Positions 10,622 through 37,944 of a stretch of 64,000 nucleotides of DNA are shown here, in pieces. This DNA is from a virus (Duplodnaviria; Heunggongvirae; Uroviricota; Caudoviricetes), in IMG/VR virus record IMGVR_UViG_3300043467_001216. One strand, given 5' to 3'. The position numbers and the translations under genes were made by a program. Numbering within the stretch: the first letter of the stretch is position 1; each line of letters begins with the position of its first letter. A model generated the notes under the pieces. It saw nothing but the letters and a program-made list of their open reading frames with translations, did no database searches and had not been told where the DNA came from.

Positions 10622-10626
10622 TTAAC

Positions 10627-10664: not shown

Positions 10665-10682
10665 AAGAAACAAATAAAAACT

Positions 10683-21202: not shown

Positions 21203-21621
21203 AAATAGTAATTACAGAAAATAGATTAGAAAAAGTTCTTAAACAATCAGGTACTGATAAAACAATTCAGTTACTAGGTGGTTGGGAGAACTTTTGTAAA
21301 GTATTTAAGATTGAGAGTCCGATGGATTTCTTACATCTATTTGATGATTTAGAAGAATTTCAATCAACTGAAAACTCCAACTTTAAATTATATAGATATA
21401 GACCGGGAAAAAACTTTATGATATATAACATAAATGAGAATCGTATTGGTATTAGTAATGAAGAGATTTTGACTTTTGTTACCAGTAGTAATTTGTTTAC
21501 ACCTGACTTTAAACCGAGAGAAATAATACAAACGTGGTTGGAGGATGTTTATAAACTTGATATTGGTATAAATAGAATCCACTCATTTAATTTGTGGGAT
21601 AATGTTAGCCGAATAGAATAA
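21199..21621 (+). CDS. Family-A leader-tagged protein (1 of 5)
   Basis: MKIVITEN...LLGGWENF...PMDFLHLFDDL. Confidence 0.9.
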   Translation: MKIVITENRLEKVLKQSGTDKTIQLLGGWENFCKVFKIESPMDFLHLFDDLEEFQSTENSNFKLYRYRPGKNFMIYNINENRIGISNEEILTFVTSSNLFTPDFKPREIIQTWLEDVYKLDIGINRIHSFNLWDNVSRIE

Positions 21622-21622
21622 T

Positions 21623-22045
21623 ATGAAAATAGTTATAACAGAAAATAAATTAGAAAAAGTTCTTAAACAATCAGGGACTAAAAAAACTATTGAACTACTA
21701 GGTGGTTGGGATAATTTTTGCAAAGTATTTAAGATTGAAAGTCCAATGGACTTCTTACACCTTTTTGATGATTTGGAACGAGTTCAGTCGGAAGAAAAAA
21801 AAAATTGGACGTTATTTCGTTATAAAAAAGGTGATAATTATATAGTTTACGATAGAAAAAATGAGGAAGTCTACATTAATAATGTTGAGATTTTGATGAT
21901 TTTGTTAAAAACGATTCGACAATTTGATACTACCTATACTGTTACTCAGGAAGTATTAAAGAAGTGGTTGGGTGAGGTCTACAATTTAAAATATACACGA
22001 CCAACACCAAAACTCTTGTCGGGTAGTATGAAGTCTATAATTTAA
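21623..22045 (+). CDS. Family-A leader-tagged protein (2 of 5)
   Basis: Same N-terminal block; degenerate repeat pair at 21967/22023. Confidence 0.9.
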   Translation: MKIVITENKLEKVLKQSGTKKTIELLGGWDNFCKVFKIESPMDFLHLFDDLERVQSEEKKNWTLFRYKKGDNYIVYDRKNEEVYINNVEILMILLKTIRQFDTTYTVTQEVLKKWLGEVYNLKYTRPTPKLLSGSMKSII

Positions 22046-22051
22046 AATGAT

Positions 22052-22246
22052 ATGAAAATAATAATAACAGAAGAACAATATAAAACACTTAATGAAATGA
22101 TTAAACTTGATATTAAAGTTGGGGATACATTAATGGGTGGTAAATTTAAGAACAAGAAGGTTGTTGTTAAAACTATTGGTAAGAATGACAATGGTGATAT
22201 CACAATAAATGGGAAACCATTATTACGATTTAGAATTATAAAATGA
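22052..22246 (+). CDS. Leader-tagged small KOW/SH3-like protein
   Basis: MKIIITEEQY; IKVGDTLMGGKFKNKKVVV. Confidence 0.8.
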   Translation: MKIIITEEQYKTLNEMIKLDIKVGDTLMGGKFKNKKVVVKTIGKNDNGDITINGKPLLRFRIIK

Positions 22247-22515
22247 AAATAATAATTACAGAAGAACAATATAGTCGTTATATGAGACGAAGATATGAAT
22301 GTATGAAAGAGTTCGTTGATAAATTAACTAGTGGTGAAGAAAAATTACTTGTTCCCCCTGGTGACTTTGAATGGGATACTTACAAATATATTTTAACAGC
22401 CTTCGTAAGACGTTCTTGTAATAAGAATGAGATGTATTTTAATGAAGATGTTCATAACGAAATAATGGAAATATTTGGTGATAGACTAAAACAGTATTAC
22501 GATAATAATAGATAA
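22243..22515 (+). CDS. Leader-tagged hypothetical protein
   Basis: MKIIITEEQY. Confidence 0.8.
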   Translation: MKIIITEEQYSRYMRRRYECMKEFVDKLTSGEEKLLVPPGDFEWDTYKYILTAFVRRSCNKNEMYFNEDVHNEIMEIFGDRLKQYYDNNR

Positions 22516-22583
22516 AATTCCCCATTTCTAATTGGTGGTGTTTTTTTTTAATTAATTAATATTTATAAATAAAAGTAAAAAAT

Positions 22584-22982
22584 ATGAAAAAAGTTATAAG
22601 ATTAACGGAACGTGATTTAACTAAGTTAGTTAAACGTATTATTAGTGAGCAAGAAGGGGAAATGCCAGCACGTAAATTGAGTCCGAGAGTTGAAAAAGAA
22701 AGAAAAATCGGAAAATTAAATTATGATAAATCTAGATTAGAAGGATTAAAAAAGGATATTTCAGAAATTGCTGAATTTTCAATAGAAACATTTAATGATA
22801 TTATTAACCAAATGGGTGATATTGATTCTGTTCAAATTGATTCAGCTCAAATTGATTCAGCTCAAAAGGCGTTAAGTGATTTCTTAAAAAGTGTTATTAA
22901 TATTGACAATGGAAATACCTTTGAATATCCAAACGAAGTTGAGTGGAGAGGTATGAAATTTAATGGAAAAATTGATAAATAG
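22584..22982 (+). CDS. Leader-tagged hypothetical protein
   Basis: MKKVIRLTERDLTKLVKRIISE; TATTTATA at 22560-22567. Confidence 0.85.
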   Translation: MKKVIRLTERDLTKLVKRIISEQEGEMPARKLSPRVEKERKIGKLNYDKSRLEGLKKDISEIAEFSIETFNDIINQMGDIDSVQIDSAQIDSAQKALSDFLKSVINIDNGNTFEYPNEVEWRGMKFNGKIDK

Positions 22983-23051
22983 GATTAAAAAAGAGATTAA
23001 TAAAAAACCCCATTTCTAAAAAGAGTGGGGTTTTTTTATTATATTTGTTTT

Positions 23052-23396
23052 ATGAAAAGTGTTATTCAGTTACGGAAGATTAAAGATAAATCAGACAAGA
23101 GATATAAGATTAGATATACGTTTTATCATAAAAACGTGTTATTAAGTGAAAAAATATACGATATTCACGATATTATTCTTGAAAACGGGTGGAAAAGTAT
23201 ATCATTTGAGGAACATATGTCATTATGTAAGAGATTGTTTGGTTTCACATTTAGTAAGTATACATTAATCAACACTAAAGATTTCGGTTTATTTCCTGAT
23301 ATTCCTTATAATAATTGGTTAAATTATCAGGATGATGGGTTCAATGTTTGTTTAAATGATAATGATTTATTAATATTAAAAGAAAAATTGGTATGA
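23052..23396 (+). CDS. Hypothetical protein
   Basis: ATG 23052 after TATATTTG at 23040-23047. Confidence 0.7.
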   Translation: MKSVIQLRKIKDKSDKRYKIRYTFYHKNVLLSEKIYDIHDIILENGWKSISFEEHMSLCKRLFGFTFSKYTLINTKDFGLFPDIPYNNWLNYQDDGFNVCLNDNDLLILKEKLV

Positions 23397-23584
23397 GTGG
23401 TAAGTTTTTTATGGTAGTGTATATTATTGGGGTATTAGGTAGTGTTAATAATTTATTCAACAGTAATAGTTACGAAGAAAGATTGGGTTGGTTTTCGGCA
23501 TTTTTCTACGCTGTGTCAGCATTCTTATGTCAAATTGAGTTGAATCAGTGTAAGAAGAAAAATGATGAAGAAGAATCTGAATGA
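23393..23584 (+). CDS. Small membrane protein
   Basis: Two hydrophobic segments. Confidence 0.65.
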   Translation: MSGKFFMVVYIIGVLGSVNNLFNSNSYEERLGWFSAFFYAVSAFLCQIELNQCKKKNDEEESE

Positions 23585-24170
23585 TTGGGATAGACCGGTA
23601 AGAAGTTTATCATATCCCCGTGAAGGATGGGATAGACCATATTATGATTATGTTTTCTTAACTGAGGGTCAGAAATATCGTTATGATGTTTTGATACCTA
23701 GTATTAGTAAAGTAATGCAAAAATTCGGTTTAAATAGATTTACTAAGTTGATTGGGGGTCAAGTATTGTATAAGACATTTGCATCGTATCCTGACGAGAT
23801 ATTTACGATATTTGGGAAGTTTAAAAAATTTAGAATTTTATTACAAGATGCTGAATCATATCATTTTCGGACAAATGATGCTAATGTGTATTATTATAAT
23901 ACATTTCCCCTATTTTATATTGATGATAACGGTGTAATGATGGTTGATAATTCATTGAGGGATTTATTTGAGAAATCTTTTAGGATGCCTGAGAATTATT
24001 ATTGTCGTATGTTGGAGGAATATGGTAAAACCAGACATCGTGAGAATGTAAGATTTGTAAAGTTTTGTGATTTAAATTTCAAAGTCCCTAAATTGGAATC
24101 AATGCACATTAGTTATAGGGATGTTATTGGGGTAAATTACAGTCCGACTCACAGTTTTCGTTATTTATAG
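23562..24170 (+). CDS. Hypothetical protein with GG-helix module
   Basis: KFGLNRFTKLIGG. Confidence 0.75.
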   Translation: MMKKNLNDWDRPVRSLSYPREGWDRPYYDYVFLTEGQKYRYDVLIPSISKVMQKFGLNRFTKLIGGQVLYKTFASYPDEIFTIFGKFKKFRILLQDAESYHFRTNDANVYYYNTFPLFYIDDNGVMMVDNSLRDLFEKSFRMPENYYCRMLEEYGKTRHRENVRFVKFCDLNFKVPKLESMHISYRDVIGVNYSPTHSFRYL

Positions 24171-24192
24171 GTATTTATATTAAAAAATATCT

Positions 24193-24864
24193 ATGGGAAA
24201 ATTTATAATTACGGAAGATGATAAACGACATATTAAAAGTTTGTATGAACAAACTACTGTGAAACCACAAACAGAAAATGCCGCATTAAATATAACACCA
24301 TTAGCTGGTGGTATTAAATTTGTAATCAATAATAAATCAGGGTTTTCTGCTGGTTCAGAAATGGGTGGTGTAACATCAGAATTAGGTCAAGGTAATTTTA
24401 TATTGTTTAATCAAGTTCCGAGTGCTCCGGGTGCCGCATTAACTTTGGATTTTTTAAATACTTCGGGTGCTCAGAGTGCAATTGTTAGTATGTTAAATAA
24501 TAAAATTGGTTTTATGAAAGATGCTAAAATGTTTGGTATTGATGATAGAGGTGCTATGGATTTTATATCATTAGTTTGTAGAGGTTTTTATGGTAATATT
24601 ACAAAAGAAAATGTTATTAGTTTATTACAGTCTTTGAGATTGCTACAACAAAATCAAGCAAAAATATTAGGTTCAAGTATAATCTCAAATTTCGAATCAA
24701 TTTTTAAAACAATCGTATCTATTAGTTCTATGACAGGTCCTGATTTTTATGCTAAATTCCCAACTAATTTAGTTTCTAATAAATGGGGTGCTGGTGGTAA
24801 TGAAATGAAAGCCATATATTCAGCATCAATCGAGTACTTTCCAGGTAACATTAAAAAAGTATAA
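24193..24864 (+). CDS. Leader-tagged hypothetical protein
   Basis: MGKFIITEDDKRHIKSLYE; TATTTATA at 24172-24179. Confidence 0.85.
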   Translation: MGKFIITEDDKRHIKSLYEQTTVKPQTENAALNITPLAGGIKFVINNKSGFSAGSEMGGVTSELGQGNFILFNQVPSAPGAALTLDFLNTSGAQSAIVSMLNNKIGFMKDAKMFGIDDRGAMDFISLVCRGFYGNITKENVISLLQSLRLLQQNQAKILGSSIISNFESIFKTIVSISSMTGPDFYAKFPTNLVSNKWGAGGNEMKAIYSASIEYFPGNIKKV

Positions 24865-24897
24865 AAATAAACCCCACCAATTGAGTGGGGTTATTCA

Positions 24898-25416
24898 TTA
24901 GTATTGACTGTGGATGTTTAAATACATTCCATTTAGTTGTGAGTTGATGTAAACAACACGTAAGAAGTAAGTAGTATCATCATTCACGTATGTGTATTCT
25001 TCAAATAACATTTTATCATTAATGAAACTTGTGTTAGTGAATTTAGAAATCACTTTTGATTTATTTTTAGGTAATTTGTTTGTGAAATTTTTAAGAGTAT
25101 TTACAAATACGGAGTCAGGAGTTGTATTAGGTTTCAAATCTTGTCCATCATATTCGTTAAGGTAGTATAAACCTTTGAAACCTTTAGTGTTGATTGCACT
25201 AAGGATTATATCATATTTTTTATCGTATAAAACATTTAGTATTTGTTTTTTAAGATTAGAATGATTACCATATACCGGAGTTACTGAATTTATGATTGAG
25301 TCAATTCTTTTGTCTTTTAAAGAATTGAAAACTTTATCATTATCAGATGATTTTTGTGAGAACACGTTTAGTAACGTTACCAAACCAAATACTAAACTTA
25401 AAACTAACTTTTTCAT
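24898..25416 (-). CDS. Secreted hypothetical protein
   Basis: Bacteroidota-type signal MKKLVLSLVFGL...FSQ. Confidence 0.8.
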   Translation of the reverse strand: MKKLVLSLVFGLVTLLNVFSQKSSDNDKVFNSLKDKRIDSIINSVTPVYGNHSNLKKQILNVLYDKKYDIILSAINTKGFKGLYYLNEYDGQDLKPNTTPDSVFVNTLKNFTNKLPKNKSKVISKFTNTSFINDKMLFEEYTYVNDDTTYFLRVVYINSQLNGMYLNIHSQY

Positions 25417-25476
25417 AACTCATTGTTTATATATGTAAAGATAATAAATTATTTGATTTAAAGACTATTTATTGGT

Positions 25477-26610
25477 ATGAAAATTATTATAACAGAAAGA
25501 CAATTTGATTTAATAGAGCAAGAATTAAGTTTATCTGATGATAAACCTGAAGATGAAATTAAACCATTTGCTGAGTTTACTGATATTAGGCACGGTGAAT
25601 GGCCAACAGGTGCAATTTATATTAATGGTGTATCAACATCTGATAAAGATATGTTGAGTTCCATTAAACAGAGTAAACTTCCGACTAAAATATCATTTAA
25701 ATCGGTTATCAACCCATTAAATACTTTAGAAATTGAAAGTGATAAGTTATATATTAGCAAGAATAATAACTTATATATTTTAAAGTCTGATTATCCTGAA
25801 TATATTAAAAAACAAGTCGTTACAAACTTATATCCTGATGATTTGAAAAAATTAAATTCAGGATTTCCTGAATTTATAACAAAATTATTATTTGAAAAGT
25901 TTAAGGATAATTTGGGTCTTAATAATTACATTATTCTGAATAAAAAATCGAATAAATATATTGTTACATCAGCAATGTGTGAAAGTAATATCGGATTAAT
26001 TGTTGATGTTAACAACCCTATTGACCCATTGTATAATACAAATGTTAACGGTCAAGTTTGGTCGATTTTAAATTTCTTTGATACCAATCCAAAAGTAATT
26101 AAACAATTATTGAATTGGTATTATGATACTGACCCACAACAAGTGTCACTTGATAATTTTAAATCGTGGATAGTTGAAAATCAAAATGATTTGTTTGATG
26201 GTATTAAATTAAAGGTGTTGGTTAATTTAAATTTTGAATCTTATAATAAAGGGACTGAAACCGAAAATTATGCCATAAACCATTTAATAAATAAATTAAA
26301 TGTTTCACCTGACAAGATTCAACAATTTTGTGCGGGTACAGGTAGAGATAGAAAACAAGGGGTGGATTTTATTACCATTAAAAATGGTGTTGAATCAACA
26401 TTCCAAGTTAAACCATTAAGTGGTATAAAAACCGATGAATCATCATTTATCATCTCAACTTATAAGATGAAAAATTATAGTAAAAAAGTACAGTATTTAA
26501 TTTTTGCTAATAAACAGGATTTTTATATTTTTGAAAACTACGGATATGTAATTTCAGATGGTAATAATGTTGTGACAATTAATAAAGAAAGTTTAGTATA
26601 TCCAAAATAA
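25477..26610 (+). CDS. Leader-tagged protein with C-terminal PD-(D/E)xK-like nuclease motif
   Basis: MKIIITE; GTETE...DRKQGVD...QVK. Confidence 0.6.
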   Translation: MKIIITERQFDLIEQELSLSDDKPEDEIKPFAEFTDIRHGEWPTGAIYINGVSTSDKDMLSSIKQSKLPTKISFKSVINPLNTLEIESDKLYISKNNNLYILKSDYPEYIKKQVVTNLYPDDLKKLNSGFPEFITKLLFEKFKDNLGLNNYIILNKKSNKYIVTSAMCESNIGLIVDVNNPIDPLYNTNVNGQVWSILNFFDTNPKVIKQLLNWYYDTDPQQVSLDNFKSWIVENQNDLFDGIKLKVLVNLNFESYNKGTETENYAINHLINKLNVSPDKIQQFCAGTGRDRKQGVDFITIKNGVESTFQVKPLSGIKTDESSFIISTYKMKNYSKKVQYLIFANKQDFYIFENYGYVISDGNNVVTINKESLVYPK

Positions 26611-26699
26611 CCCCACCTAAAATAGTATTTTAGGTCCGACCCAAGGTAATACTTGGGTTTCTTTTTTTGAATTAACTATATTTATATATAAAAAAGATT

Positions 26700-27239
26700 A
26701 TGAAACATTTATTAAATAATTTGAGTGAGGAAGAAAAAAACTCAATTAGAGAACAACACGAAGGTGGAATGAAGTTAGATACTTCAAGATTTAGAACTTT
26801 ATTGGAGAGTAAATCAGGTAATGTTAAACCATTAGTAGAACAAGATGAACCTTCAATCGAAGATGAATTAGAAGAAATGGTTGGTGTTGATTATATGTCA
26901 GATGAATTGGAAGAAGATTTTGAAGGTGAAGAAAAACCTTTAAATATAATTCAGAAACATTTGTTAAAGAAATTTAGGTCAAATCCTAATATTGCATCTG
27001 ATTATGGGATGAGTGATGAAGAATTTAATGATTTTGTTTATAATGAACTAGACCATGAAAATTATAATGATATGTTTTATCCGGATGATTCTAGATTTGT
27101 AGATGATGAAGAAGAAGAAGATTTAGGATTTGCACAACACGATGGTGATTTTGGTGGTGACGACTCTGAATTTGATGATGAAGAAGAATTGGATTTAACA
27201 GAATTCGATGATTTAGAAGATGATGAAGATACTTGGTAA
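26700..27239 (+). CDS. Leader-tagged highly acidic protein
   Basis: LSEEEKNSIREQH; D/E-rich C-terminal part. Confidence 0.85.
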   Translation: MKHLLNNLSEEEKNSIREQHEGGMKLDTSRFRTLLESKSGNVKPLVEQDEPSIEDELEEMVGVDYMSDELEEDFEGEEKPLNIIQKHLLKKFRSNPNIASDYGMSDEEFNDFVYNELDHENYNDMFYPDDSRFVDDEEEEDLGFAQHDGDFGGDDSEFDDEEELDLTEFDDLEDDEDTW

Positions 27240-27308
27240 TCATTAATTAATATTATATTATCCCCACCTCATCCGTGGGGTTTTTTGTTTATAAAAGTAT
27301 TTATGATT

Positions 27309-27821
27309 ATGGATATTAAAATCACCGAAAAACAACGTGAAAGAATACTAAAATTATTGACTAACAGAAACCCTCAAGAAGTGTTTAAATTATTGGGTGG
27401 GGTTGATAATTTTTTAAAAATAGTCAATAATGACTTAAAGGAATTCTATGAACTTACAGGTTACATTCCTTATACAATAGACGAACTTGATGGTGGGAGA
27501 ATGCACATTGATAAAATATTAATTGATAGGTTAAATTTAGAAGATAAACCTCATTGGATTGATGAACAAAAAAAATTAGGTGAATTTATCTTTGGGACAA
27601 AAAACGGTCCAAGGTATACGTTTGATGCGGTAGCAACAGGTAAAGCTATTGATTCTAACGGTCAAGTGTTTATGCAAGTCGCTGGAATGTGTGATGATTT
27701 AGGTTTAGGATTTGGATATGGTGACCTAAAACAAAAAGAAAAATTAGGTAAAAGAGCTCAATCTCAAATTTACAAACAAATAATTGAGAAATATAATTTA
27801 GATAGTTACAATGGACATTAA
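27309..27821 (+). CDS. Leader-tagged protein (paralog of 27811-28299)
   Basis: MDIKITE; TATTTAT at 27298-27304. Confidence 0.85.
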   Translation: MDIKITEKQRERILKLLTNRNPQEVFKLLGGVDNFLKIVNNDLKEFYELTGYIPYTIDELDGGRMHIDKILIDRLNLEDKPHWIDEQKKLGEFIFGTKNGPRYTFDAVATGKAIDSNGQVFMQVAGMCDDLGLGFGYGDLKQKEKLGKRAQSQIYKQIIEKYNLDSYNGH

Positions 27822-28299
27822 AATTACCGAGAGACAACGTGAAAAAATCATAGATTTATTGACTACCAAAAAAACAGGTGATGTTATAAAATTATTAGGT
27901 GGTGTTAATAATCTTTTAAAACTTTTCAATAACGATTTAAAAGAATTCTATAAATCAACAGGTTTTGTCCCATATAAATTTGATTCGACAGGTGAGAATA
28001 TGTATATCGACAATCATTTACTTGAATCACTTAATTTAGAAGATAGTTGGAATAAGAAAGAAAAAAAACTTGGTGATTTTAGATGGACTAGTGGTGGTAT
28101 GAATTATAAGTTCACAGCCCACGCGTCCTCACCATTTATAAGTCATCAAGGTCAAGAATTAAGGAGAGTACTTGGTACTTGTGGTGATTCAGGATTTGGT
28201 TATTCATTTATCAGTAAACGAAATACTATTGGTAAACGAGGTAGGAAACAGATATTCAAACAAATAATTGAGAAATATAATTTAGATAGTTTTTTATAA
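27811..28299 (+). CDS. Leader-tagged protein (paralog of 27309-27821)
   Basis: MDIKITE; shared KQIIEKYNLDS end. Confidence 0.85.
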   Translation: MDIKITERQREKIIDLLTTKKTGDVIKLLGGVNNLLKLFNNDLKEFYKSTGFVPYKFDSTGENMYIDNHLLESLNLEDSWNKKEKKLGDFRWTSGGMNYKFTAHASSPFISHQGQELRRVLGTCGDSGFGYSFISKRNTIGKRGRKQIFKQIIEKYNLDSFL

Positions 28300-28372
28300 A
28301 AATCATAGTTAAAATTTTTTTATTCGAAAAGGTTCCGTATATTTGTTCTGTATAACTTTAAAACATAAAAAA

Positions 28373-28555
28373 ATGATAGCATTTATTTTAATCACAGGAA
28401 TCGGGGCGTTTTTAGTAAAAAGATTTATGAACGCAGGTAGACTAAAAAACATTTTGTTTTGGACTTTAGTTGTGTTGGCATCAATTATACCAGCAATTTG
28501 TGTTGGTGGTTTCATCATCGGGTTTGTAATTGGAATTGTAAATAGAATTATGTGA
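28373..28555 (+). CDS. Small membrane protein
   Basis: Hydrophobic; TATATTTG at 28338-28345. Confidence 0.6.
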   Translation: MIAFILITGIGAFLVKRFMNAGRLKNILFWTLVVLASIIPAICVGGFIIGFVIGIVNRIM

Positions 28556-28594
28556 TTTTTTAAAATCATAGATATTTATTAATAAAATATAACT

Positions 28595-29503: not shown

Positions 29504-29573
29504 TTAATAGAATATTATAGTGAACCCCTCCAATATGTGAGGGGTTTTTTTGTATATAATACTATTTATAATT

Positions 29574-30140
29574 ATGAAAATAAAGATAACCGAATCACAA
29601 TATAAAAGATTGATTGAGGATGTTGAATCTCCAATGGATTCGTTAGAAAAATATAAACCTGTTTGTTTTAAATATTGGGATAGATTTGGGCCTGGTATAA
29701 CAAACAAGATGGTTAATGTTCTTGCTATTAATAAATACGTTAACCGTTTTGAATTTCGTAAGGTTTTATATCAATGGTTAAGAGAATATATTGGTGTTGA
29801 GGAGGCTATCAATAAAACATACGAGTATTTGAAGAATGATGGTCATCACGTTAATTGTGGTGGTTATGATTTTACATTTGAAGTTCCTGATATTGAGTTT
29901 ATAGGTGAGATTGGTGATTTGACTATTATGGTTAATGATGAAGATGGTACTGTTGAGTTAATTATGGTTGATAATAGTGAACACAGACTTGCGGATATTA
30001 TTAATGATGATGAAATCGGTTGGGAAATTAAATCTGAGGTTGAGGACTGTGTTGCCGATTATCTTAAAATAAACGTGGAAGATAAGTTTGGTGTGGTTTG
30101 TCACCCCAATATTATATTCCAATCAAGAAATAATGGATGA
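29574..30140 (+). CDS. Leader-tagged protein (CFKYWD family)
   Basis: MKIKITESQY; TATTTATA at 29563-29570. Confidence 0.85.
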   Translation: MKIKITESQYKRLIEDVESPMDSLEKYKPVCFKYWDRFGPGITNKMVNVLAINKYVNRFEFRKVLYQWLREYIGVEEAINKTYEYLKNDGHHVNCGGYDFTFEVPDIEFIGEIGDLTIMVNDEDGTVELIMVDNSEHRLADIINDDEIGWEIKSEVEDCVADYLKINVEDKFGVVCHPNIIFQSRNNG

Positions 30141-30523
30141 AAGTAGTAATTGACGAACAAAAATTAATTAACGGATTTCAAAAATTAACCGACAAATTTT
30201 TGGCAGACTTAAAAGAGTATGCTGAAAAATGGTATGAAAATGAGGAAATCCCTGATTGGATGTCATCGGGTATTGTTGAGTGGGTTGATGCCGTTGATAA
30301 AATCAATATAACCCACCTTCAAGTGAGGAAGGATGATATCGGTTCAAATTATTATATTTCGGTTGATGCTATTTTGGATTCTAAAGTAAGATTTGATATT
30401 GATGAGATACTACAACATATAACATATTTGATAATAAAACGTATGTTTGGTTTAAGGTCAGGTAATCAGGTTATTATGATTAGTGATAACATTGAGTTAA
30501 AAGATAGTAACCCCCAATGGTAA
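30137..30523 (+). CDS. Leader-tagged protein (resembles N-half of 20453)
   Basis: MKVVIDEQKLINGFQK. Confidence 0.8.
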   Translation: MKVVIDEQKLINGFQKLTDKFLADLKEYAEKWYENEEIPDWMSSGIVEWVDAVDKINITHLQVRKDDIGSNYYISVDAILDSKVRFDIDEILQHITYLIIKRMFGLRSGNQVIMISDNIELKDSNPQW

Positions 30524-30552
30524 GTTTAATTTAATTTCATTATTTTTACCTT

Positions 30553-30807
30553 ATGGAAAATAGTTTAATTATAGGGTATGAAGTTCGTGAAGATGGGCGA
30601 ATGTATTTGGATTTAAAATCTAATAAAGGTTTGACTAATTATTCAGAACTGTTAACAGTTAGTGTTGCAGCTTTAAGTATGATGATAAGAATGGCCGGTG
30701 AAAAAGGTCATAAGACTGAGGGTGAGATATTTGAATCAGTTATCAATCATTTACATAGTGAGTTTATCAACCCTGATTCATTCAAAGATTTGGAAATAAA
30801 ACGATAA
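30553..30807 (+). CDS. Hypothetical protein
   Basis: ORF. Confidence 0.65.
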   Translation: MENSLIIGYEVREDGRMYLDLKSNKGLTNYSELLTVSVAALSMMIRMAGEKGHKTEGEIFESVINHLHSEFINPDSFKDLEIKR

Positions 30808-30866
30808 ACATAAATTTGCTACGATAAACTAGGTTGGTTTATTGTAGCAATAACATATTTATTAAT

Positions 30867-31484
30867 ATGAAAATATTAATTAGTGAAGCTCAATTATTTG
30901 GGAATAATGACTTATTAAAACAGATTTGTTTTAAATATTGGGATAAGAAAGGGTTTGCTACATCAGATAAATCATTTTTACAGTTATTTAAAATTCCAGG
31001 TCAAATGGTGATGAGAGTAGAGGCGTTGGTTGATGAGTGGAATGAAGTCAATAATATTACCCCCATATCTATATTAGAAAAAGATTTTGGACCATTTTAT
31101 AATTCAACAGTTTCTAAACATATATATACTTGGCCTGATAGACGTGGTGGATATACAGATATTGAAGTTAGTGATGGTAATATTAGTTGTAAAGTAAGAA
31201 TCCATAGTATGGATTTTAATCTAAATGATAGAACACTTGATGTTTGGTTTGAAATGATTACTAGTGAGTTAAGAGATATAAGTTGGAACGGTAGAACATT
31301 TAATGAAGTATATCCTTATGGATATGACAATGACGAATACGCTAGTGATGATATAGATGAAGATGAATATTGGGAGATATATGATGAGTATAGAGGTGAA
31401 GTTGCTTGGTTACTTCATAAATATTTTATGAAAAACTATGTATCCCGAATGGGTGAGTTTAAACTTGAAATTGAACATTATTAA
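30867..31484 (+). CDS. Leader-tagged protein (CFKYWD family)
   Basis: MKILISE; TATTTAT at 30856-30862. Confidence 0.85.
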   Translation: MKILISEAQLFGNNDLLKQICFKYWDKKGFATSDKSFLQLFKIPGQMVMRVEALVDEWNEVNNITPISILEKDFGPFYNSTVSKHIYTWPDRRGGYTDIEVSDGNISCKVRIHSMDFNLNDRTLDVWFEMITSELRDISWNGRTFNEVYPYGYDNDEYASDDIDEDEYWEIYDEYRGEVAWLLHKYFMKNYVSRMGEFKLEIEHY

Positions 31485-31486
31485 TT

Positions 31487-32104
31487 ATGAAAGTTATAAT
31501 AAGTGAAAGTAAATTAGAAGATTTAAAAAAGATTTTCTATAATAAGTGGGATAAACAGGGGTATGCTAGTTACGACTTCAGAATGGCTAAAGTATTTAAC
31601 GTTAAAAAATATATTGATGATGACCCTGGGTTAAATAAAACAGGTTACTATATTACACCGGATAAGTTAGTTAGATTATGGGTTACCGATTGGAATAAAA
31701 AACACGGTATAACAAATCTATCAATATTAGATGAATTTGGAATGAAACATCATATAGGGACTTATTCAGAGTATTATGATAGTACAAAACCGATTAAGTT
31801 CACATATAAAGATAATGACAATTATTTGGAATTTGAAATTAATGAATTAAGACTTGATGATGAAATACTTATACTTTATTATTTAAATTTTAATCTTAAT
31901 AACGCAATTATTGATAAAGAGAATGTTGGTGAGGTATTAAGTGCAATTGGTGACGATGATGATGATGAATGGAATGAGACTGTTGAAGATTATCGTGAAA
32001 GTGCTATTGGTCTTGTTTATGATTATATGATGAAAAACTATGTTAATAAAATGAGTGGTGACATTGATATTGAAATTGAATATGTTGATTCATTCTTTGA
32101 ATAA
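31487..32104 (+). CDS. Leader-tagged protein (paralog of 30867-31484)
   Basis: MKVIISE; FYNKWDKQG; MKNYV..M end. Confidence 0.85.
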   Translation: MKVIISESKLEDLKKIFYNKWDKQGYASYDFRMAKVFNVKKYIDDDPGLNKTGYYITPDKLVRLWVTDWNKKHGITNLSILDEFGMKHHIGTYSEYYDSTKPIKFTYKDNDNYLEFEINELRLDDEILILYYLNFNLNNAIIDKENVGEVLSAIGDDDDDEWNETVEDYRESAIGLVYDYMMKNYVNKMSGDIDIEIEYVDSFFE

Positions 32105-32143
32105 TTAATTGACTATAAAATTAAAATACTTAAATTTAAAAAT

Positions 32144-32332
32144 ATGATGAACAACGAAAGTAAAGCTAGAATGTATGGTGAGTTATTAAACGAACATACA
32201 AGAGTCGGTAATTTAATATCAGAAGTTAAAGCCGAGAATTTTGAAATGAATGATGAACAAAACACAAGAATACGAGTTTTGGAAAATAAGCAGATTCAAA
32301 TAATGATGGCAATTAAAAAATTAATGTCATAA
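32144..32332 (+). CDS. Small coiled-coil protein
   Basis: ORF before terminator. Confidence 0.65.
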   Translation: MMNNESKARMYGELLNEHTRVGNLISEVKAENFEMNDEQNTRIRVLENKQIQIMMAIKKLMS

Positions 32333-32388
32333 CAAAAAACCACCTCATCAGGTGGTTTTTTAATTTAATATTATTTATATTTTAGATT

Positions 32389-32772
32389 ATGAGTTGTAAT
32401 ATGTTTAATATGCCGGTTGAGTTAAATTCTACAATGATTTCATATAGAGTGAAATCAGGTAGGAAGATTGATACTCAGATTGGTGGTGTTTATATACACC
32501 CACAATCAGTTATATCCGATTTTAACCCTGATGAATTCATTAACGACTTCACCTTATTAATTAATAAAACAATTAAAATCTATTTACGTATTGATGTTGA
32601 ATATGATGAATACTATAACCGATTAAACATAACAGTTAATACAACAAAAATGATTGATTGGGATTATATGACTAAAATTGAAAAATGTGCAAATGTTTTA
32701 TTAAAATTTAGAGGTAAATACAAAAGACCCCCTATGTGTTTTATTATTGAAAGTTACACACCTGTTGCTTAA
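32389..32772 (+). CDS. Hypothetical protein
   Basis: ORF. Confidence 0.65.
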   Translation: MSCNMFNMPVELNSTMISYRVKSGRKIDTQIGGVYIHPQSVISDFNPDEFINDFTLLINKTIKIYLRIDVEYDEYYNRLNITVNTTKMIDWDYMTKIEKCANVLLKFRGKYKRPPMCFIIESYTPVA

Positions 32773-33626
32773 ATTTTAGTAGCGTCTTTTAGGATTTCTA
32801 ATGCGGTTTTATAATTTTCATCAGACAATACCGATTTAAGATTAACAAAATCACCACCCGATGTTTTAGCCTCCCATTCTTTATCGTTTGTTAATCTATA
32901 AGTCCACATTTTATCAGTTTTTAATTTATATTCACCAGGTTTCCAACTCTTAAAAAAATTATCAATAGATAATTTAATTTTATTGTCACTGTCTTTTTTA
33001 ACCACATCATTATTCTTCTTAATTTTCTTTTTAACAAAAGGACCCCCATCGTGAGGTTTGAATCTACTAGGGTTTGTGTATTTGTAAAAGAATTGTCTGA
33101 TGTAGATACCGGTAGGGTTTTTAAAATCAAGAACAAGGGTAAAATCTTTACCACCTGTAACTCTTCTTTTCATACCTTCAATTTGACCTTGGGCTCTTGA
33201 ATCGGCACTACCACCGGCAGACCCGACACTTGAAACCCCGATATATGCGTTACCGTCATCACTTTCATCAATGGTTGCGGACCATTTAACAGTATATGTT
33301 TTTGAATCTACTTGAATTTTTAAATTAGTTATGTCAGGATTAATACCTTCATTCCATAGTTCTTCTAACGCTTGATTAATACTTTTACCTTGATTAAACT
33401 TAATATATGGACTCCATTTAGATGGGGGATTACCGGTTAACATATAACCACCAAATCCGTCAGATATTCTACGGTTGAATGAGTGTAATGCGTCACCTTT
33501 GTTAGGTGCACTATTAGGTACGGTGTATTCACCGCTAATTTTCATTGGTAAGGACATTTTACTTTCAGTAACAATACCCATCATTGTTTTCATTCGATAT
33601 ATTTCTTCGTTTAAAGTATTTTTCAT
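32769..33626 (-). CDS. Leader-tagged hypothetical protein
   Basis: MKNTLNEEIYRMK..IVTE; TATTTAT on minus strand at 33631-33637. Confidence 0.85.
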   Translation of the reverse strand: MKNTLNEEIYRMKTMMGIVTESKMSLPMKISGEYTVPNSAPNKGDALHSFNRRISDGFGGYMLTGNPPSKWSPYIKFNQGKSINQALEELWNEGINPDITNLKIQVDSKTYTVKWSATIDESDDGNAYIGVSSVGSAGGSADSRAQGQIEGMKRRVTGGKDFTLVLDFKNPTGIYIRQFFYKYTNPSRFKPHDGGPFVKKKIKKNNDVVKKDSDNKIKLSIDNFFKSWKPGEYKLKTDKMWTYRLTNDKEWEAKTSGGDFVNLKSVLSDENYKTALEILKDATKI

Positions 33627-33643
33627 ACTAATAAATATTACTA

Positions 33644-34009
33644 TTAGAAGTAATAATTTGTAATTATACAGTTTGGATTAATATTTGTTAGGTCAGGAAA
33701 TGTAACATTTCCGATATCATTATTGTTTATATGACTAATATGTAATTCTGTGAATAAGTGACAATATTTTTCATATGTTTTTTTACCCCCAATACACCAA
33801 TCGACAATAGTTATATACTCTTCTCTTTCATCAACGATTAGAGTTCTATCTTTGAGTGGTGGTAGTCCGTTAAAAGTTCTGAAACCGACTAATAAAATTT
33901 GATTTAGGGTAAGTTTTTTGAAGTGTTTAAGGTCTTCCGATGATTTCCATAGTAATTTATCGTCTAAACCGATAAAACCAAGGTTATTTACTGCGATTAT
34001 AGCTTTCAT
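33644..34009 (-). CDS. folA: Dihydrofolate reductase (compact)
   Basis: IIAVNNLGFIG..LLW...DLKHFKKLT, VGFRTF, PLKDR, IGG. Confidence 0.9.
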   Translation of the reverse strand: MKAIIAVNNLGFIGLDDKLLWKSSEDLKHFKKLTLNQILLVGFRTFNGLPPLKDRTLIVDEREEYITIVDWCIGGKKTYEKYCHLFTELHISHINNNDIGNVTFPDLTNINPNCIITNYYF

Positions 34010-34037
34010 TAACCTAATTATAACATATTTATTAGAT

Positions 34038-34469
34038 ATGAAAATAATAATAACAGAAAGTCAGTATAAGAAATTTAAACACTTGTTGGAACAAGATGTT
34101 TATGATGATGAAGAGTATAGTAATGCCGGTTACGGTAATGAGGATTACGGTGTTGCCGATAAAGAAGGTATGGTTTTTAAAACTGAAATTGCTGGAATGC
34201 CGTTAAAACTAACTTACTCACATACCACACAAGTTAGTGAGAATGAATTTGAATATTACTGTGAGGTGGTATTTTATGGTGATGAGTTCTTTGGTGTGTT
34301 TGTTGCCGATAAGAGAGGTTATTTAGTAGACATTGATTTCCCTTCTGTAATTTCAGAAAATGATGAGGACGTTAGATTACAAGACGTATTAAAAGAGATG
34401 GGTAGTAAATATTACTATGAATTCGAACATTGGTTAGATAGTGAGGTAATACCTTCATTAATGGATTAA
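34038..34469 (+). CDS. Leader-tagged acidic protein
   Basis: MKIIITESQY at ATG 34038; TATTTAT at 34026-34032. Confidence 0.85.
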   Translation: MKIIITESQYKKFKHLLEQDVYDDEEYSNAGYGNEDYGVADKEGMVFKTEIAGMPLKLTYSHTTQVSENEFEYYCEVVFYGDEFFGVFVADKRGYLVDIDFPSVISENDEDVRLQDVLKEMGSKYYYEFEHWLDSEVIPSLMD

Positions 34470-34473
34470 GTTT

Positions 34474-35385
34474 ATGAGAGAAAAGATTTACAAAATAATT
34501 GAAAAGGTTGGTCCTTTTAAGGCTGCAAAGTATTTTGGTGGTGTTGAAAAGTTTTTGAAGTTGTTAGAAACTATACCAGGGTCAGATAGTATTAAAGAAC
34601 AATTTAAAGGTAGTTGTAGTGTATCATATGCGACATCTGCTAGTCACCCTGATGCGTATTTCGATTTTTACATATTGGATTATGATATTATAGATGATGA
34701 TTTTGTTGAATTAATTGTTGATATGAAAGTTGATTTTAGTAATCTATCAGGTGAAGAGATATATGAATTAAAAAAATGGTTTGGTGCAGTTGCCGATGAC
34801 CACGGATTTGAAATTTATGACGTTGAAAATCTACCATCACATCAAAATCTATATATTAAATCATTCAATGGTAAACCATATACTTGGCCAGGTTATGATG
34901 TTATAGATGATAATGAAGCTTTCGAATTACTTGATAAGACAGGTAAGTGGGAAGGTTTGATTAGAGAAAGTATTCACGTATTCAAAAATCCAAAAACGGA
35001 TGAAGATAGTGGTTACAAAAAAATGGTTGCGGTTATTAAACATTTAGAAAATAAACCCGGAAATCCTTATACCGACTATACCGACTTAAACCCAAGAATG
35101 AAAATTAAATTTCTAGAATCCGATGAATGGGGAATAAAGGTTTATATTGATATTGAATCTATGGGTGAGTCAGATGAAGAATTTGAGGTTTTTACAAATT
35201 ATGGTGATGAAACACGTAGACATATGAGTAATAGAAACCTTATGAAATTCTGGCATGGTTATAAATTAAATGATGATGAAGATGATACTCATCCATCCTT
35301 TAAAACAATAATTTATAATCGTTTAATTAAATTACGAAATAATATAGGTTTGAAATTTAAATTACGTGTATCAATTCTACCTTAA
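34474..35385 (+). CDS. Two-module protein with GG-helix N-terminus
   Basis: VGPFKAAKYFGGVEKF; internal LIRES. Confidence 0.8.
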   Translation: MREKIYKIIEKVGPFKAAKYFGGVEKFLKLLETIPGSDSIKEQFKGSCSVSYATSASHPDAYFDFYILDYDIIDDDFVELIVDMKVDFSNLSGEEIYELKKWFGAVADDHGFEIYDVENLPSHQNLYIKSFNGKPYTWPGYDVIDDNEAFELLDKTGKWEGLIRESIHVFKNPKTDEDSGYKKMVAVIKHLENKPGNPYTDYTDLNPRMKIKFLESDEWGIKVYIDIESMGESDEEFEVFTNYGDETRRHMSNRNLMKFWHGYKLNDDEDDTHPSFKTIIYNRLIKLRNNIGLKFKLRVSILP

Positions 35386-35387
35386 TT

Positions 35388-35810
35388 ATGAAAATATTAA
35401 TAACAGAAAATAAAGTAAAAAACGTCCTTAAACAAACCGGAGTTGGGAAAACTATTAAACTATTAGGTGGTTGGGAAAACTTTTGCGAAGTATTAAATAT
35501 TGAAACATTAATGGACTTCTTACATCTGTTTGATGATTTGGAACAAGTTAAATCTGAAAAAAAAGAAAATTGGACGTTATTTCGTTATAAAAAAGGTGAA
35601 AACTTAATGGTTTACGATAGAAAAAATGAGGTAGTTCATATCAATTATTATGAAATATGGTCATTTTTGGATGATAAATTTGGTCTTAGTTATTATGAGA
35701 CTCAAAGAATTACACAGGATTGGTTGGATGAGGTCTACAATTTAAGGGGGGTCACAACTGATTGGTCTTTTTTCTCCAATGTGTCGAGTTGGATGAGGTC
35801 TACAATTTAA
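35388..35810 (+). CDS. Family-A leader-tagged protein (3 of 5)
   Basis: Ends in repeat-spacer-half repeat. Confidence 0.9.
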   Translation: MKILITENKVKNVLKQTGVGKTIKLLGGWENFCEVLNIETLMDFLHLFDDLEQVKSEKKENWTLFRYKKGENLMVYDRKNEVVHINYYEIWSFLDDKFGLSYYETQRITQDWLDEVYNLRGVTTDWSFFSNVSSWMRSTI

Positions 35811-35812
35811 AA
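35723..35812. repeat. Mini CRISPR-like unit: 36-nt repeat, 29-nt spacer, half repeat
   Basis: GTTGGATGAGGTCTACAATTTAAGGGGGGTCACAAC at 35723-35758; GTTGGATGAGGTCTACAATTTAA again at 35788. Confidence 0.6.
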
Positions 35813-35819
35813 TAAGAGT

Positions 35820-36218
35820 ATGAAAATAATAATAACAGAAAATAAATTAGAGAAAGTTCTTAAACAATTAGGAAGTAAAAAAACTGTTCATATGTTAGGC
35901 GGTTGGGATAATTTTTGTGAACTATTTAATATTGAAAGTCCGATGGACTTCTTACATCTATTTGATGACTTAGAACAAGTTCAATCTGAAGAATATAAAA
36001 ATCAAACATTATTTCGTAACAAAAAAGGTTATAATTATATGGTTTACGATAGAAAAAAAAAGGTTGTTTACATCAATGGTGATGAAATATGGTCGTTTTT
36101 GGGAGGGTGGGGATTCCACCTTAACTTTAATGATATTCAATCACTTATAAAGGTGTGGTTGGATGAGGTTTACAATTTAAGGGGGGTTACAATTTTCAAC
36201 CTCTTCACAGTTAGGTGA
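35820..36218 (+). CDS. Family-A leader-tagged protein (4 of 5)
   Basis: Same N-terminal block; WLDEVYNLRGVT. Confidence 0.9.
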   Translation: MKIIITENKLEKVLKQLGSKKTVHMLGGWDNFCELFNIESPMDFLHLFDDLEQVQSEEYKNQTLFRNKKGYNYMVYDRKKKVVYINGDEIWSFLGGWGFHLNFNDIQSLIKVWLDEVYNLRGVTIFNLFTVR

Positions 36219-36235
36219 GGTCAACAATTTAAAAT
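36158..36235. repeat. Mini repeat unit: 36-nt repeat, 16-nt spacer, half repeat
   Basis: GTTGGATGAGGTTTACAATTTAAGGGGGGTTACAAT at 36158; GTTAGGTGAGGTCAACAATTTAAAAT at 36210. Confidence 0.55.
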
Positions 36236-36241
36236 GAAATT

Positions 36242-37943: not shown

Positions 37944-37944
37944 A

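What the first reader, a model, noticed from the sequence alone, without database searches (positions are those of the whole stretch)
21967..36235. Cas13b-repeat-like mini-units (repeat, spacer, half repeat) at the 3' ends of three paralogous genes
Seen: GTTGGATGAGGTCTACAATTTAAGGGGGGTCACAAC (35723-35758, 36 nt with GTTG...CAAC ends), a 29-nt spacer and a 23-nt exact half repeat. Similar units occur at 36158/36210 and, degenerate, at 21967/22023. The second copies are out of frame, so they are DNA/RNA-level rather than protein repeats, and they truncate at about the same point (AATT(T)AA) as the last repeat of the big array. The two repeat types share about 22 of 36 positions. From memory, type VI-B repeats read like GTTGGGACTGCTCTCACTTTGAAGGGTATTCACAAC and GTTGGATCTACCCTCTATTCGAAGGGTACACACAAC; this needs verification. 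Known: Cas13b is common in Bacteroidota and processes its own repeats, and solitary repeat RNAs can act as anti-CRISPRs (Racrs). Inference: mRNA-embedded Cas13b decoys or guides, or footprints of the same insertion machinery that built the large array.
Basis: partly seen in the sequence, partly recalled or inferred. Interest (0 to 1): 0.85.

Follow-up and report, generated by a model that had tools for sequence, protein, structure and literature searches.

The report
CRISPR-type mini-arrays ending phage genes
Three small genes of a large uncultured lake phage end in miniature CRISPR-style repeat-spacer units. The intact unit carries a 29-base piece of the likely host bacterium's chromosome, read as the protein's last amino acids, which suggests that a CRISPR-type insertion enzyme keeps rewriting the tails of phage proteins; I found this in no paper searched.

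Summary
Gene 35388-35810 ends in a 36-nt repeat, a 29-nt spacer and an exact 23-nt repeat copy. Paralogs 35820-36218 and 21623-22045 carry decayed versions. The repeat also encodes the family's last 12 conserved residues.

The spacer matches 28/29 a native chromosomal gene of a bacterial MAG, the likely host. In 124 related loci this family carries 43 distinct arrays of 1-5 spacers (68 different spacers, mostly 29-31 nt). Repeats within an array are near-identical, the terminal copy is always cut at the same base, and turnover is at the gene-proximal end. Further spacers match bacterial housekeeping genes.

The repeat is 20-25/36 identical to genuine Cas13b repeats (z 4.5-6.6) but lacks their hairpin. 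No cas1, cas2 or cas13b was found in this phage fragment or a complete relative.

These are minimal CRISPR-type arrays written into gene ends, probably by an integrase acting in trans. The newest spacer is translated, and stop codons are depleted there.

This scan had already noted the same phenomenon in other phages and in this genome's large array.

The parts
35388..35810 (+). Gene G1 (140 aa, P0001), a member of a small phage protein family with no known domain; it carries the intact mini-array at its 3' end.
   Evidence: ORF and translation. 507 homologs. No Pfam or PHROG family. Confident model, pLDDT 86.7, with no PDB match.
35723..35758 (+). Full 36-nt repeat with GTTG...CAAC ends. It starts at the 3rd base of the invariant Trp codon and encodes LDEVYNLRGVT(T).
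   Evidence: Written in rare codons that are fixed across the family (GC3 0.52 against 0.235 in the gene body). 20-25/36 identical to real VI-B repeats.
35759..35787 (+). 29-nt spacer, translated as (T)DWSFFSNVS(S). It is a copy of a bacterial chromosomal gene.
   Evidence: 28/29 match to L004 4685-4712, inside a 691-aa ORF beside valyl-tRNA synthetase, thiolase and ALAD genes. That gene region is conserved in 10 other genomes of the genus. No match in viral contigs.
35788..35810 (+). Terminal truncated repeat (23 nt, 23/23 identical to the full repeat). It is read here in frame +1 as WMRSTI-stop; in its own frame it would read LDEVYNLK-stop. It abuts the start of the next gene.
   Evidence: Across the family the terminal copy is 92% identical over its first 23 nt and 35% over the last 13 nt.
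35820..36218 (+). Gene G2 (132 aa, P0002), a tandem paralog with a decayed unit: repeat 36158-36193, 16-nt spacer remnant 36194-36209, terminal copy 36210-36232.
   Evidence: repeat 33/36 to G1's; terminal copy 19/23.
21623..22045 (+). Gene G4 (140 aa, P0004), a paralog with a degenerate unit: repeat-like 21967-22002 (it departs from the repeat after base 23), filler 22003-22022, terminal copy 22023-22045.
   Evidence: 24/36 and 18/23.
36242..36664 (+). Gene G3 (140 aa, P0003), a tandem paralog whose homologous codons (WLEESYNITNVT) no longer form a repeat; it has no second copy.
21199..21621 (+). Gene G5 (140 aa, P0005), a paralog with a diverged motif (WLEDVYKL...) and, at most, a very degenerate in-frame second copy.
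11413..12489 (+). Large in-frame array inside ORF 11167-12489: 16 full repeats plus a truncated 17th, with a 66-nt period. It is the same kind of element with a sister repeat type (22/36 shared).
   Evidence: Two of its spacers match the same host MAG at 26/30 and 24/30, exactly at the spacer boundaries.
37302..37943 (+). Context only: a phage DNA/RNA non-specific endonuclease gene just downstream of the G1-G3 cluster. It is a possible source of host DNA fragments.
   Evidence: Pfam PF01223, E 3.4e-24. The link to spacer supply is inference.

Best explanation
The three units are minimal CRISPR-type arrays built into the 3' ends of a phage gene family. The layout is: gene body (acting as leader), a 36-nt repeat that doubles as the last 12 conserved codons, a spacer of about 30 nt, and a terminal repeat cut after base 23 that supplies the stop codon.

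Shown:
- Spacers are pieces of bacterial (host) chromosome.
- Each array has near-identical repeats.
- New spacers appear at the gene-proximal end.
- Orthologs differing by a few percent carry unrelated spacers.
- The repeat's nucleotide sequence is conserved beyond what the protein needs.

Inferred:
- A CRISPR-type integrase inserts the spacers with repeat duplication. The most likely candidate is a host type II-C Cas1-Cas2 acting in trans on a type VI-B-like repeat, as it does on real VI-B arrays.
- It draws on host DNA fragments made during infection.

Each insertion rewrites the protein's C-terminal tail of about 10 residues. Spacers of 30, 29 or 31 nt then end in LDEVYNLK, WMRSTI or VG, the three reading frames of the next repeat.

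G1 is a recent acquisition. G2 and G4 are old units decaying by deletion and point mutation.

I rate at about 0.35 the further step that the variable tail itself is what the phage selects for.
For: 1. Host origin of spacers.
- The G1 spacer matches 28/29 a gene in a bacterial contig that also carries valS, thiolase and hemB-type genes. About 7e-5 such matches are expected by chance in that collection.
- The gene is native: it is conserved at 64-76% in 10 of the 15 other genomes of the genus.
- In relatives, L118 spacer 4 matches 29/30 a dihydrolipoyl-dehydrogenase-type gene, and about 20 of 301 family genomes match it at 90% or more.
- L087 spacers 2, 3 and 5 match at 88-100%.
- All matches coincide with the spacer boundaries.
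- Spacer GC is 0.37, phage 0.30, host loci 0.32-0.40.

2. Array anatomy.
- 43 distinct arrays with 1-5 spacers and 68 unique spacers: 20 of 29 nt, 20 of 30, 19 of 31, 6 of 32, 2 of 33 and 1 of 27.
- This fits the 28-32 nt, mostly 30, reported for II-C/VI-B acquisition (PMC8092290) and the 29-31 nt seen in II-C arrays of the host family.
- Repeat identity is 35.5/36 within arrays and 31.1/36 between arrays. The terminal copy is conserved only over its first 23 nt.

3. Polarity. L087 and L090 share four distal spacers and the terminal repeat and differ only in the gene-proximal spacer. L109 and L124 show the same pattern.

4. Turnover. There are 91 distinct tails among 119 homologs. Half of the pairs with bodies at least 98% identical have different tails.

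5. The repeat is kept at the DNA level. It is written in rare codons (TTG, GAG, GTC, TAC, AGG) that are fixed across the family.

6. Similarity to real VI-B repeats.

7. Translation matters. 38 of 46 spacers entered by the ribosome are open, against 48 of 92 for the same spacers in the other two frames (Fisher p = 3.5e-4).
Against: - No integrase is identified. No Cas1 or Cas2 was found in this fragment (42% complete), and none in a relative that CheckV rates 100% complete and that carries such arrays.
- No Cas1 was found in the 1.9-Mb host MAG. Only 1 of 16 genomes of its genus has one, and that copy has an in-frame stop. Cas1 occurs in 37 of 121 genomes of the family.
- The II-C repeats of that family are 47 nt, not 36.
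- Six protospacers give no shared flanking motif.
- Orientation is ambiguous: the best-matching real repeat (G248) aligns best in the opposite sense relative to its leader.
- Against a protein-level role: all three frames occur, 17-20% of spacers hold a stop, and spacers after a frameshift are not translated.
- Two of the three units in this window are decaying.
- One spacer (L044) had no exact match, and one array (L040) had no match in the genus.
Confidence: 0.7

Rival explanations
1. Same arrays, but the writer is an unrecognised phage-encoded integration system rather than host Cas1-Cas2. The phage carries what it needs to insert pieces of host DNA of about 30 nt at its own repeats.
For: Cas1 was not found in the host MAG and is present in only 1 of 16 genomes of its genus, yet turnover is fast. 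Nearly every family member carries an array, and the repeat is kept in rare codons. Every array is attached to a gene of one family (or, for the large array, a weakly similar domain) whose fold matches nothing solved.
Against: No Cas1 or Cas2 was found in a complete 296-kb relative. No known enzyme other than Cas1-Cas2 makes 28-33-nt insertions with duplication of a 36-nt repeat. The spacer lengths equal those of the host family's own arrays. The 140-aa protein shows no nuclease or integrase motif.
Confidence: 0.2
2. Accidental off-target integration. Host adaptation complexes sometimes hit repeat-like phage DNA, and the units are neutral scars with no use to the phage.
For: Spacer length, and so reading frame, varies. 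Some spacers hold stops. G2 and G4 are decaying. The protospacers are ordinary genes in both orientations. Non-canonical integration by Cas1-Cas2 is discussed in the literature (papers listed; not read here).
Against: The repeat is maintained in rare codons across a family of more than 500 members. Almost all members keep at least one spacer and the same terminal cut. Stops are depleted in the translated frame (p = 3.5e-4). A scar-prone site would be expected to mutate away.
Confidence: 0.2
3. RNA-level anti-CRISPR or guide. The transcript's repeat units bind or are processed by host Cas13b, either as a Racr-like decoy or as crRNAs directed at host transcripts.
For: 36 nt, GUUG...CAAC ends and a central U-run, as in VI-B repeats (10.1101/092577). 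The units are transcribed within mRNAs in the crRNA sense relative to the B. zoohelcum-type repeat. Two of six spacers are antisense to host genes. Huge phages with cas-less arrays and host-targeting spacers are known (PMC7162821).
Against: The internal 7-bp stem that defines real VI-B repeats is missing, and the fold is no better than shuffles. cas13b was found in 3 of 401 family genomes and not in the host MAG, this phage fragment or a complete relative. Four of six spacers are in the sense orientation and so could not pair with mRNA. The targets are a carboxypeptidase, a glycosyltransferase, an oxidoreductase and proteins of unknown family, not defence genes.
Confidence: 0.07
4. Ordinary protein repeat or recombination debris. 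The second copies are leftovers of deleted tandem paralogs, or a duplicated C-terminal peptide motif.
For: The genes are tandem paralogs. In its native frame each second copy reads ...EVYNLK-stop directly before the next gene's ATG.
Against: The sequence between the copies is bacterial chromosomal DNA. Across the family it is always 27-33 nt and unrelated between close orthologs. Arrays of up to 5 units with one-ended turnover exist. The copies are out of frame.
Confidence: 0.02

Closest known systems
Type VI-B (Cas13b) CRISPR arrays of Bacteroidota, which lack cas1/cas2 and acquire spacers in trans through type II-C Cas1-Cas2 (Smargon et al., bioRxiv 10.1101/092577; Hoikkala et al. 2021, PMC8092290)
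   Same: 36-nt repeat with GTTG...CAAC ends and a central T-run. Unrelated spacers of about 30 nt (28-32). Identical repeats within an array, a degenerate terminal repeat, and turnover at one end. 20-25/36 identity to real repeats from the host family, and a BLAST hit to one such array.
   Different: It lies inside a phage protein-coding gene and is translated. The repeat lacks the internal hairpin. No cas13b is nearby or in a complete relative. Spacers come from the host chromosome, not from invaders. The arrays are tiny (mostly 1-2 spacers).
Cas-less CRISPR arrays and mini-arrays carried by huge phages and other viruses (Al-Shayeb et al. 2020, PMC7162821)
   Same: Phage-borne, compact, without Cas1/Cas2/Cas4. 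Repeats resemble host-type repeats, and some spacers match the host chromosome. Use of host Cas proteins has been proposed.
   Different: Those arrays are described as non-coding loci that make guide RNAs. Here the repeat is the coding 3' end of a gene family, the newest spacer becomes the protein tail, and the repeat has lost the crRNA fold.
RNA anti-CRISPRs (Racrs) / solitary repeat units of viruses (Camara-Wilpert et al. 2023, PMC10651486)
   Same: Viral copies of CRISPR repeats without cas genes. Partial second copies within 100 bp are called mini-arrays in that pipeline.
   Different: Racrs are small non-coding RNAs behind their own promoter that keep the Cas-binding structure. That survey found such units for every CRISPR type except type VI. 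The units here are coding, carry host spacers and do not keep the hairpin.
Diversity-generating retroelements of phages (own knowledge: Bordetella phage BPP-1 Mtd system)
   Same: What it may work like: a phage-linked mechanism that keeps changing a short C-terminal stretch of a protein while the scaffold stays constant.
   Different: DGRs use reverse transcriptase and adenine mutagenesis of a template repeat. Here whole cassettes of about 30 nt of foreign DNA are inserted between repeats. No RT was looked for, and a protein-level benefit is not shown.

Membership tests
Type VI-B (Cas13b) CRISPR array | Repeat of 36 nt with 5'-GUUG and CAAC-3' ends (10.1101/092577) | tested here: met
   Window 35723-35758. 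Relatives carry GTTG...CAAC or ...CACC variants.
Type VI-B (Cas13b) CRISPR array | Sequence similarity to repeats that sit next to cas13b | tested here: met
   23/36 to the B. zoohelcum-type repeat; 20-25/36 to three repeats of the host family; z 4.5-6.6; a V-A control gave z 0-1. A BLAST of a phage array hit the G248 VI-B array.
Type VI-B (Cas13b) CRISPR array | Conserved fold: terminal stem plus internal stem with a U-rich open loop | tested here: not met
   Three of the four real repeats fold at -9 to -14 kcal/mol with a 7-bp internal stem (z about -3); the G325 repeat gave -7.6 kcal/mol without it. The phage repeat gives -5 kcal/mol with only a 3-bp internal stem, z -0.45.
Type VI-B (Cas13b) CRISPR array | cas13b (with csx27/csx28) at the locus or in the genome | tested here: not met
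   No match in the own fragment or in a 100%-complete relative. The host MAG has none, and 3 of 401 family genomes do. The own genome is only 42% complete.
CRISPR array in general (product of Cas1-Cas2 adaptation) | Near-identical repeats separated by unrelated spacers of fixed length | tested here: met
   35.5/36 identity within arrays; 68 unique spacers, 59 of them 29-31 nt.
CRISPR array in general (product of Cas1-Cas2 adaptation) | Polarised acquisition next to a leader, with a degenerate terminal repeat at the far end | tested here: met
   L087/L090 and L109/L124 differ only in the gene-proximal spacer. The terminal copy is 92% / 35% identical over its first 23 / last 13 nt.
CRISPR array in general (product of Cas1-Cas2 adaptation) | Spacers copied from other DNA (protospacers can be found) | tested here: met
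   G1 28/29; L118 S4 29/30; L087 S2, S3 and S5 88-100%. All lie in bacterial chromosomal genes.
CRISPR array in general (product of Cas1-Cas2 adaptation) | A Cas1-Cas2 integrase is available in the cell | tested here: inconclusive
   None in the phage or its relatives. None in the host MAG. 1 of 16 in the genus and 37 of 121 in the family. MAGs often lack CRISPR loci.
CRISPR array in general (product of Cas1-Cas2 adaptation) | Protospacer-adjacent motif | tested here: inconclusive
   Six protospacers show no common flank; the sample is too small.
CRISPR array in general (product of Cas1-Cas2 adaptation) | Non-coding locus | tested here: not met
   The repeat encodes the conserved end of a folded protein (helix 102-117 and strand 123-127, pLDDT about 90). 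Stops are depleted in the translated frame.
Racr / solitary repeat unit | Small non-coding repeat RNA that keeps the Cas-binding structure, without a spacer | tested here: not met
   The units are coding and spacer-bearing, and the hairpin is lost.
Protein tandem repeat or paralog-deletion remnant | The intervening sequence is homologous to phage coding sequence, and the copies are related by in-frame duplication | tested here: not met
   The intervening sequence is bacterial DNA. The copies are out of frame.

The most novel reading that the evidence does not exclude
A CRISPR-type integrase serves as a writer of protein sequence. The phage keeps a CRISPR repeat as the last codons of a multi-copy gene family, so that every captured 30-nt piece of host DNA becomes a new C-terminal peptide, and selection then acts on those peptides. 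This would be a heritable cassette-insertion route to protein diversification, distinct from DGRs and from any described role of CRISPR arrays. A variant is that the many phage-borne repeats act as a sink that draws the host's adaptation machinery away from its own arrays.
Probability: 0.3. Interest if true: 0.95.

Novelty: new variant of a known kind. Interest (0 to 1): 0.8.

Why it matters
CRISPR arrays are treated as non-coding guide-RNA loci, and phage-borne arrays as weapons against rival elements. Here the repeat is at the same time the conserved end of a phage protein, and the spacers are pieces of the host's own chromosome that get translated.

If an integrase really writes these units, three things follow:
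- CRISPR adaptation can act on phage genomes and leave heritable records there.
- The spacers give direct, sequence-level phage-host links for uncultured freshwater jumbo phages. Here they point to a bacterium very close to the MAG behind L004.
- There may be a natural system that inserts short foreign cassettes in frame at a defined protein position, which is of interest both for phage-host arms races and as a tool.

The missing integrase is an open and testable question.

Tried and rejected
- Pfam, PHROGs and Rfam gave nothing for the five paralogs, the array ORF or the window.
- The phage collection has only one weak 186-nt match to the region.
- An exact 19-mer of the large repeat is absent from genome contigs and occurs once each in three viral contigs.
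- A generic GTTG-N32-CAAC two-spacer pattern found no true arrays in genome contigs or in 301 family genomes. These negatives are unreliable: the B. zoohelcum array was found only with its own repeat, and part of a real array is masked with N.
- Two remembered Cas13b repeat strings were not in the text of any paper. One of them was then confirmed from genomes.
- The search for related loci with the single protein found nothing in viral contigs; the alignment did.
- The records behind the metagenome loci are not held.
- The L044 spacer had no exact match. The L040 array had no match in the 16 genomes of the genus. The G1 spacer had no match in viral contigs.
- No spacer matches elsewhere in the phage genome.
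- Structure searches of the P0001 model gave Foldseek E > 0.2 and VIA Z <= 3.7.
- The profile comparison of the family with the N-terminal domain of the large-array protein was weak (E 0.007, probability 5%), so I do not claim homology.
- My first idea, that the second copies are leftovers of cassette recombination at conserved gene junctions, was dropped.

Full report
**What is there.** The window belongs to a large uncultured phage. The held record is a 126-kb fragment rated 42% complete by CheckV, with 30% GC. The same G1 protein occurs on a 310-kb contig.

Five paralogous genes of 132-140 aa lie at 21199-22045 (two genes) and 35388-36664 (three genes).
- a 36-nt repeat with GTTG...CAAC ends at 35723-35758;
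- a 29-nt spacer at 35759-35787;
- a 23/23 identical half copy at 35788-35810.

G2 has a repeat that is 33/36 identical to G1's, only 16 nt of spacer, and a 19/23 terminal copy. G4 is more degenerate, at 24/36 and 18/23. A scan of the whole genome fragment found such structures only here and in the large array at 11413-12489. The two repeat types share 22/36 positions, and the large array's last repeat is cut at the same point.

**Reading frame.** The repeat starts at the third base of an invariant Trp codon and encodes LDEVYNLRGVT(T). This is the end of a long helix and the start of a strand in a confident model (pLDDT 86.7).

In its own frame each terminal copy reads ...EVYNLK-stop and abuts the next gene's ATG. 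I therefore first took the second copies for recombination leftovers. The family data overturned that.

**The family.** P0001 has 507 homologs in metagenomes. Their bodies are conserved up to ...RGVTT. After that comes an unrelated stretch of about 10 residues, followed by one of three endings: WMRSTI, VG or LDEVYNLK. These are the three reading frames of the next repeat, as expected for spacers of 29, 31 and 30 nt.
- Among 119 homologs there are 91 different tails: 33, 28 and 12 in the three frames, and 18 with a stop inside the spacer.
- Half of the pairs whose bodies are at least 98% identical carry different tails.

At the DNA level, 44 metagenome loci and 80 IMG/VR loci hold 43 distinct arrays with 1-5 spacers. 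There are 68 different spacers: 20 of 29 nt, 20 of 30, 19 of 31, 6 of 32, 2 of 33 and 1 of 27.
- Repeats within an array are 35.5/36 identical, against 31.1/36 between arrays.
- The terminal copy matches its neighbour at 92% over the first 23 nt and at 35% over the last 13 nt.
- L087 and L090 have the same gene, the same four distal spacers and the same terminal repeat, but different gene-proximal spacers. L109 and L124 show the same pattern, and their shared distal spacer has picked up three point changes.

This is the anatomy and dynamics of a CRISPR array whose leader is the gene body.

**Where the spacers come from.** The G1 spacer matches 28 of 29 bases in contig CAMCQL010000007.1 of a bacterial MAG whose record title reads Chryseobacterium gleum. 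I take that name as a label only.
- The match lies inside a 691-aa ORF flanked by valyl-tRNA synthetase, thiolase and ALAD genes, and the flanks are unrelated to the phage.
- That gene region is conserved at 64-76% in 10 other genomes of the genus, so it is native there and the phage copy derives from a bacterium very close to this MAG.
- Two spacers of the large array hit the same MAG at 26/30 and 24/30, exactly at the spacer boundaries.

In relatives, L118 spacer 4 matches 29/30 a dihydrolipoyl-dehydrogenase-type gene, and about 20 of 301 genomes of the family match it at 90% or more. Three of the five L087 spacers match family genomes at 88-100%.

No spacer matches elsewhere in the phage, and the G1 spacer has no match in viral contigs. 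Spacer GC (0.37) is close to the host's (0.32-0.40) and above the phage's (0.30). Among six protospacers, four are in the sense orientation and two are antisense, and they share no flanking motif.

**Relation to Cas13b repeats.** I confirmed the B. zoohelcum-type repeat from genomes. Using its Cas13b as the query, I found three cas13b loci in 401 genomes of the MAG's family, each with its array.
- The phage repeat is 23/36 identical to the B. zoohelcum type and 20-25/36 to the three others (z 4.5-6.6 against shuffles). A V-A repeat scores at chance.
- A BLAST of a phage array against 301 genomes also picked out one real VI-B array.
- Three of the four real repeats fold into a terminal stem plus a 7-bp internal stem (-9 to -14 kcal/mol, z about -3). 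The phage repeats do not (-5 kcal/mol, z -0.45).

The defining features according to Smargon et al. are therefore met for length, ends and sequence, and not met for structure.

**Is the repeat kept on purpose?** Its codons are TTG, GAG, GTC, TAC and AGG. Each is a minority codon in the bodies of these same genes, yet each is nearly fixed across the family. GC3 is 0.52 in the repeat against 0.235 in the body. This is selection on the nucleotide sequence, not only on the peptide.

**Is the spacer read as protein?** Of 46 spacers that the ribosome enters, 38 are open. The same spacers in the other two frames are open in 48 of 92 cases (Fisher p = 3.5e-4). Truncation inside the tail is therefore selected against. 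Even so, all three frames are tolerated, and spacers behind a frameshift are not translated.

**Who inserts?** This step is not shown.
- Cas1, Cas2 and Cas13b were not found in this fragment, nor in a 296-kb relative that is rated 100% complete and carries several such arrays.
- The host MAG has no Cas1 in its 1.9 Mb. Only 1 of 16 genomes of its genus has one, and that copy carries a stop.
- Cas1 is present in 37 of 121 genomes of the family, next to II-C arrays with 47-nt repeats and 29-31-nt spacers, or next to V-A arrays.

In-trans filling of VI-B arrays by II-C Cas1-Cas2 is published, with spacers of 28-32 nt, mostly 30 (PMC8092290). I take that as the most likely writer and keep an unknown phage-encoded system as a serious rival.

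A phage non-specific endonuclease gene (37302-37943) and a thymidylate-synthase-like gene (37909-39180) lie just downstream. By inference, breakdown of host DNA could supply the fragments.

**Comparison with what is known.** Cas-less compact arrays with host-like repeats, some with host-matching spacers, are described in huge phages (PMC7162821). Solitary viral repeats act as RNA anti-CRISPRs, and that survey found them for all CRISPR types except VI (PMC10651486). I found no paper describing arrays that are part of a reading frame.

The units here differ from both known kinds. They are the coding 3' ends of a gene family, they have lost the crRNA hairpin, and the newest spacer becomes the protein's tail.

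**Earlier notes of this scan.** These report the same phenomenon in other phages and for the large array of this genome. I used them as leads and tested their central claims here on independent sequence.

**Verdict.** The units are real minimal CRISPR-type arrays with host-derived spacers. One is fresh (G1) and two are decaying (G2, G4). The Cas13b decoy/guide reading is unlikely. The integrase, and the benefit to the phage, remain open.

Noticed in passing
window 20442-36296 (for example 21612-21661, 22052-22089, 25466-25515, 29555-29611, 34019-34075): Many otherwise unrelated small ORFs begin with nearly the same 40-60 nt: an AT-rich leader, ATG, then codons for MKI(I/L)ITE... (repeat families D6, D7, D9 and D12). 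A conserved gene-start cassette like this could promote cassette shuffling, or it may reflect shared translation signals.
   Followed up: no
window 5345-5413, 8067-8135, 10611-10678, 23009-23052 and others: Recurrent terminator-plus-promoter cassettes: a C-rich/G-rich hairpin, a T-run, then a conserved TTATTATATTTGAAG-like box (families D11, D14, D16 and D17). They recall the promoter-stem-loop modules of T4-type phages and carry a Bacteroidota-style -7 box.
   Followed up: no
L084 7728-7827: A run of N masks part of a genuine Cas13b-adjacent array in a bacterial genome of the collection. This probably explains why generic array patterns missed true VI-B arrays.
   Followed up: partly
L032 1548-1790: An ortholog of the L031 gene has a scrambled array: a partial duplicate of its first spacer and a hybrid repeat. 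This suggests recombination between repeats inside these arrays.
   Followed up: no
window 37302-39180 and 14585-15364: A DNA/RNA non-specific endonuclease, a 423-aa thymidylate-synthase-family protein (possibly a nucleotide-modifying enzyme) and an N6/N4 DNA methylase. Together they hint at host DNA breakdown and modified phage DNA.
   Followed up: no
family-wide: Among close homologs of G1, 30-nt (in-frame) spacers are the rarest class (12, against 33 of 29 nt and 28 of 31 nt). In the broader DNA sample the three lengths are equal (20, 20, 19). This may reflect selection against reading on into the next repeat, or it may be a ranking bias of the protein search.
   Followed up: partly
IMGVR_UViG_3300042868_008486 (L003 4577-5065): A 187-kb relative carries a version of the large array that shares spacers 1, 11 and 16 with the window's array. 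It would be useful for working out how that array turns over.
   Followed up: no
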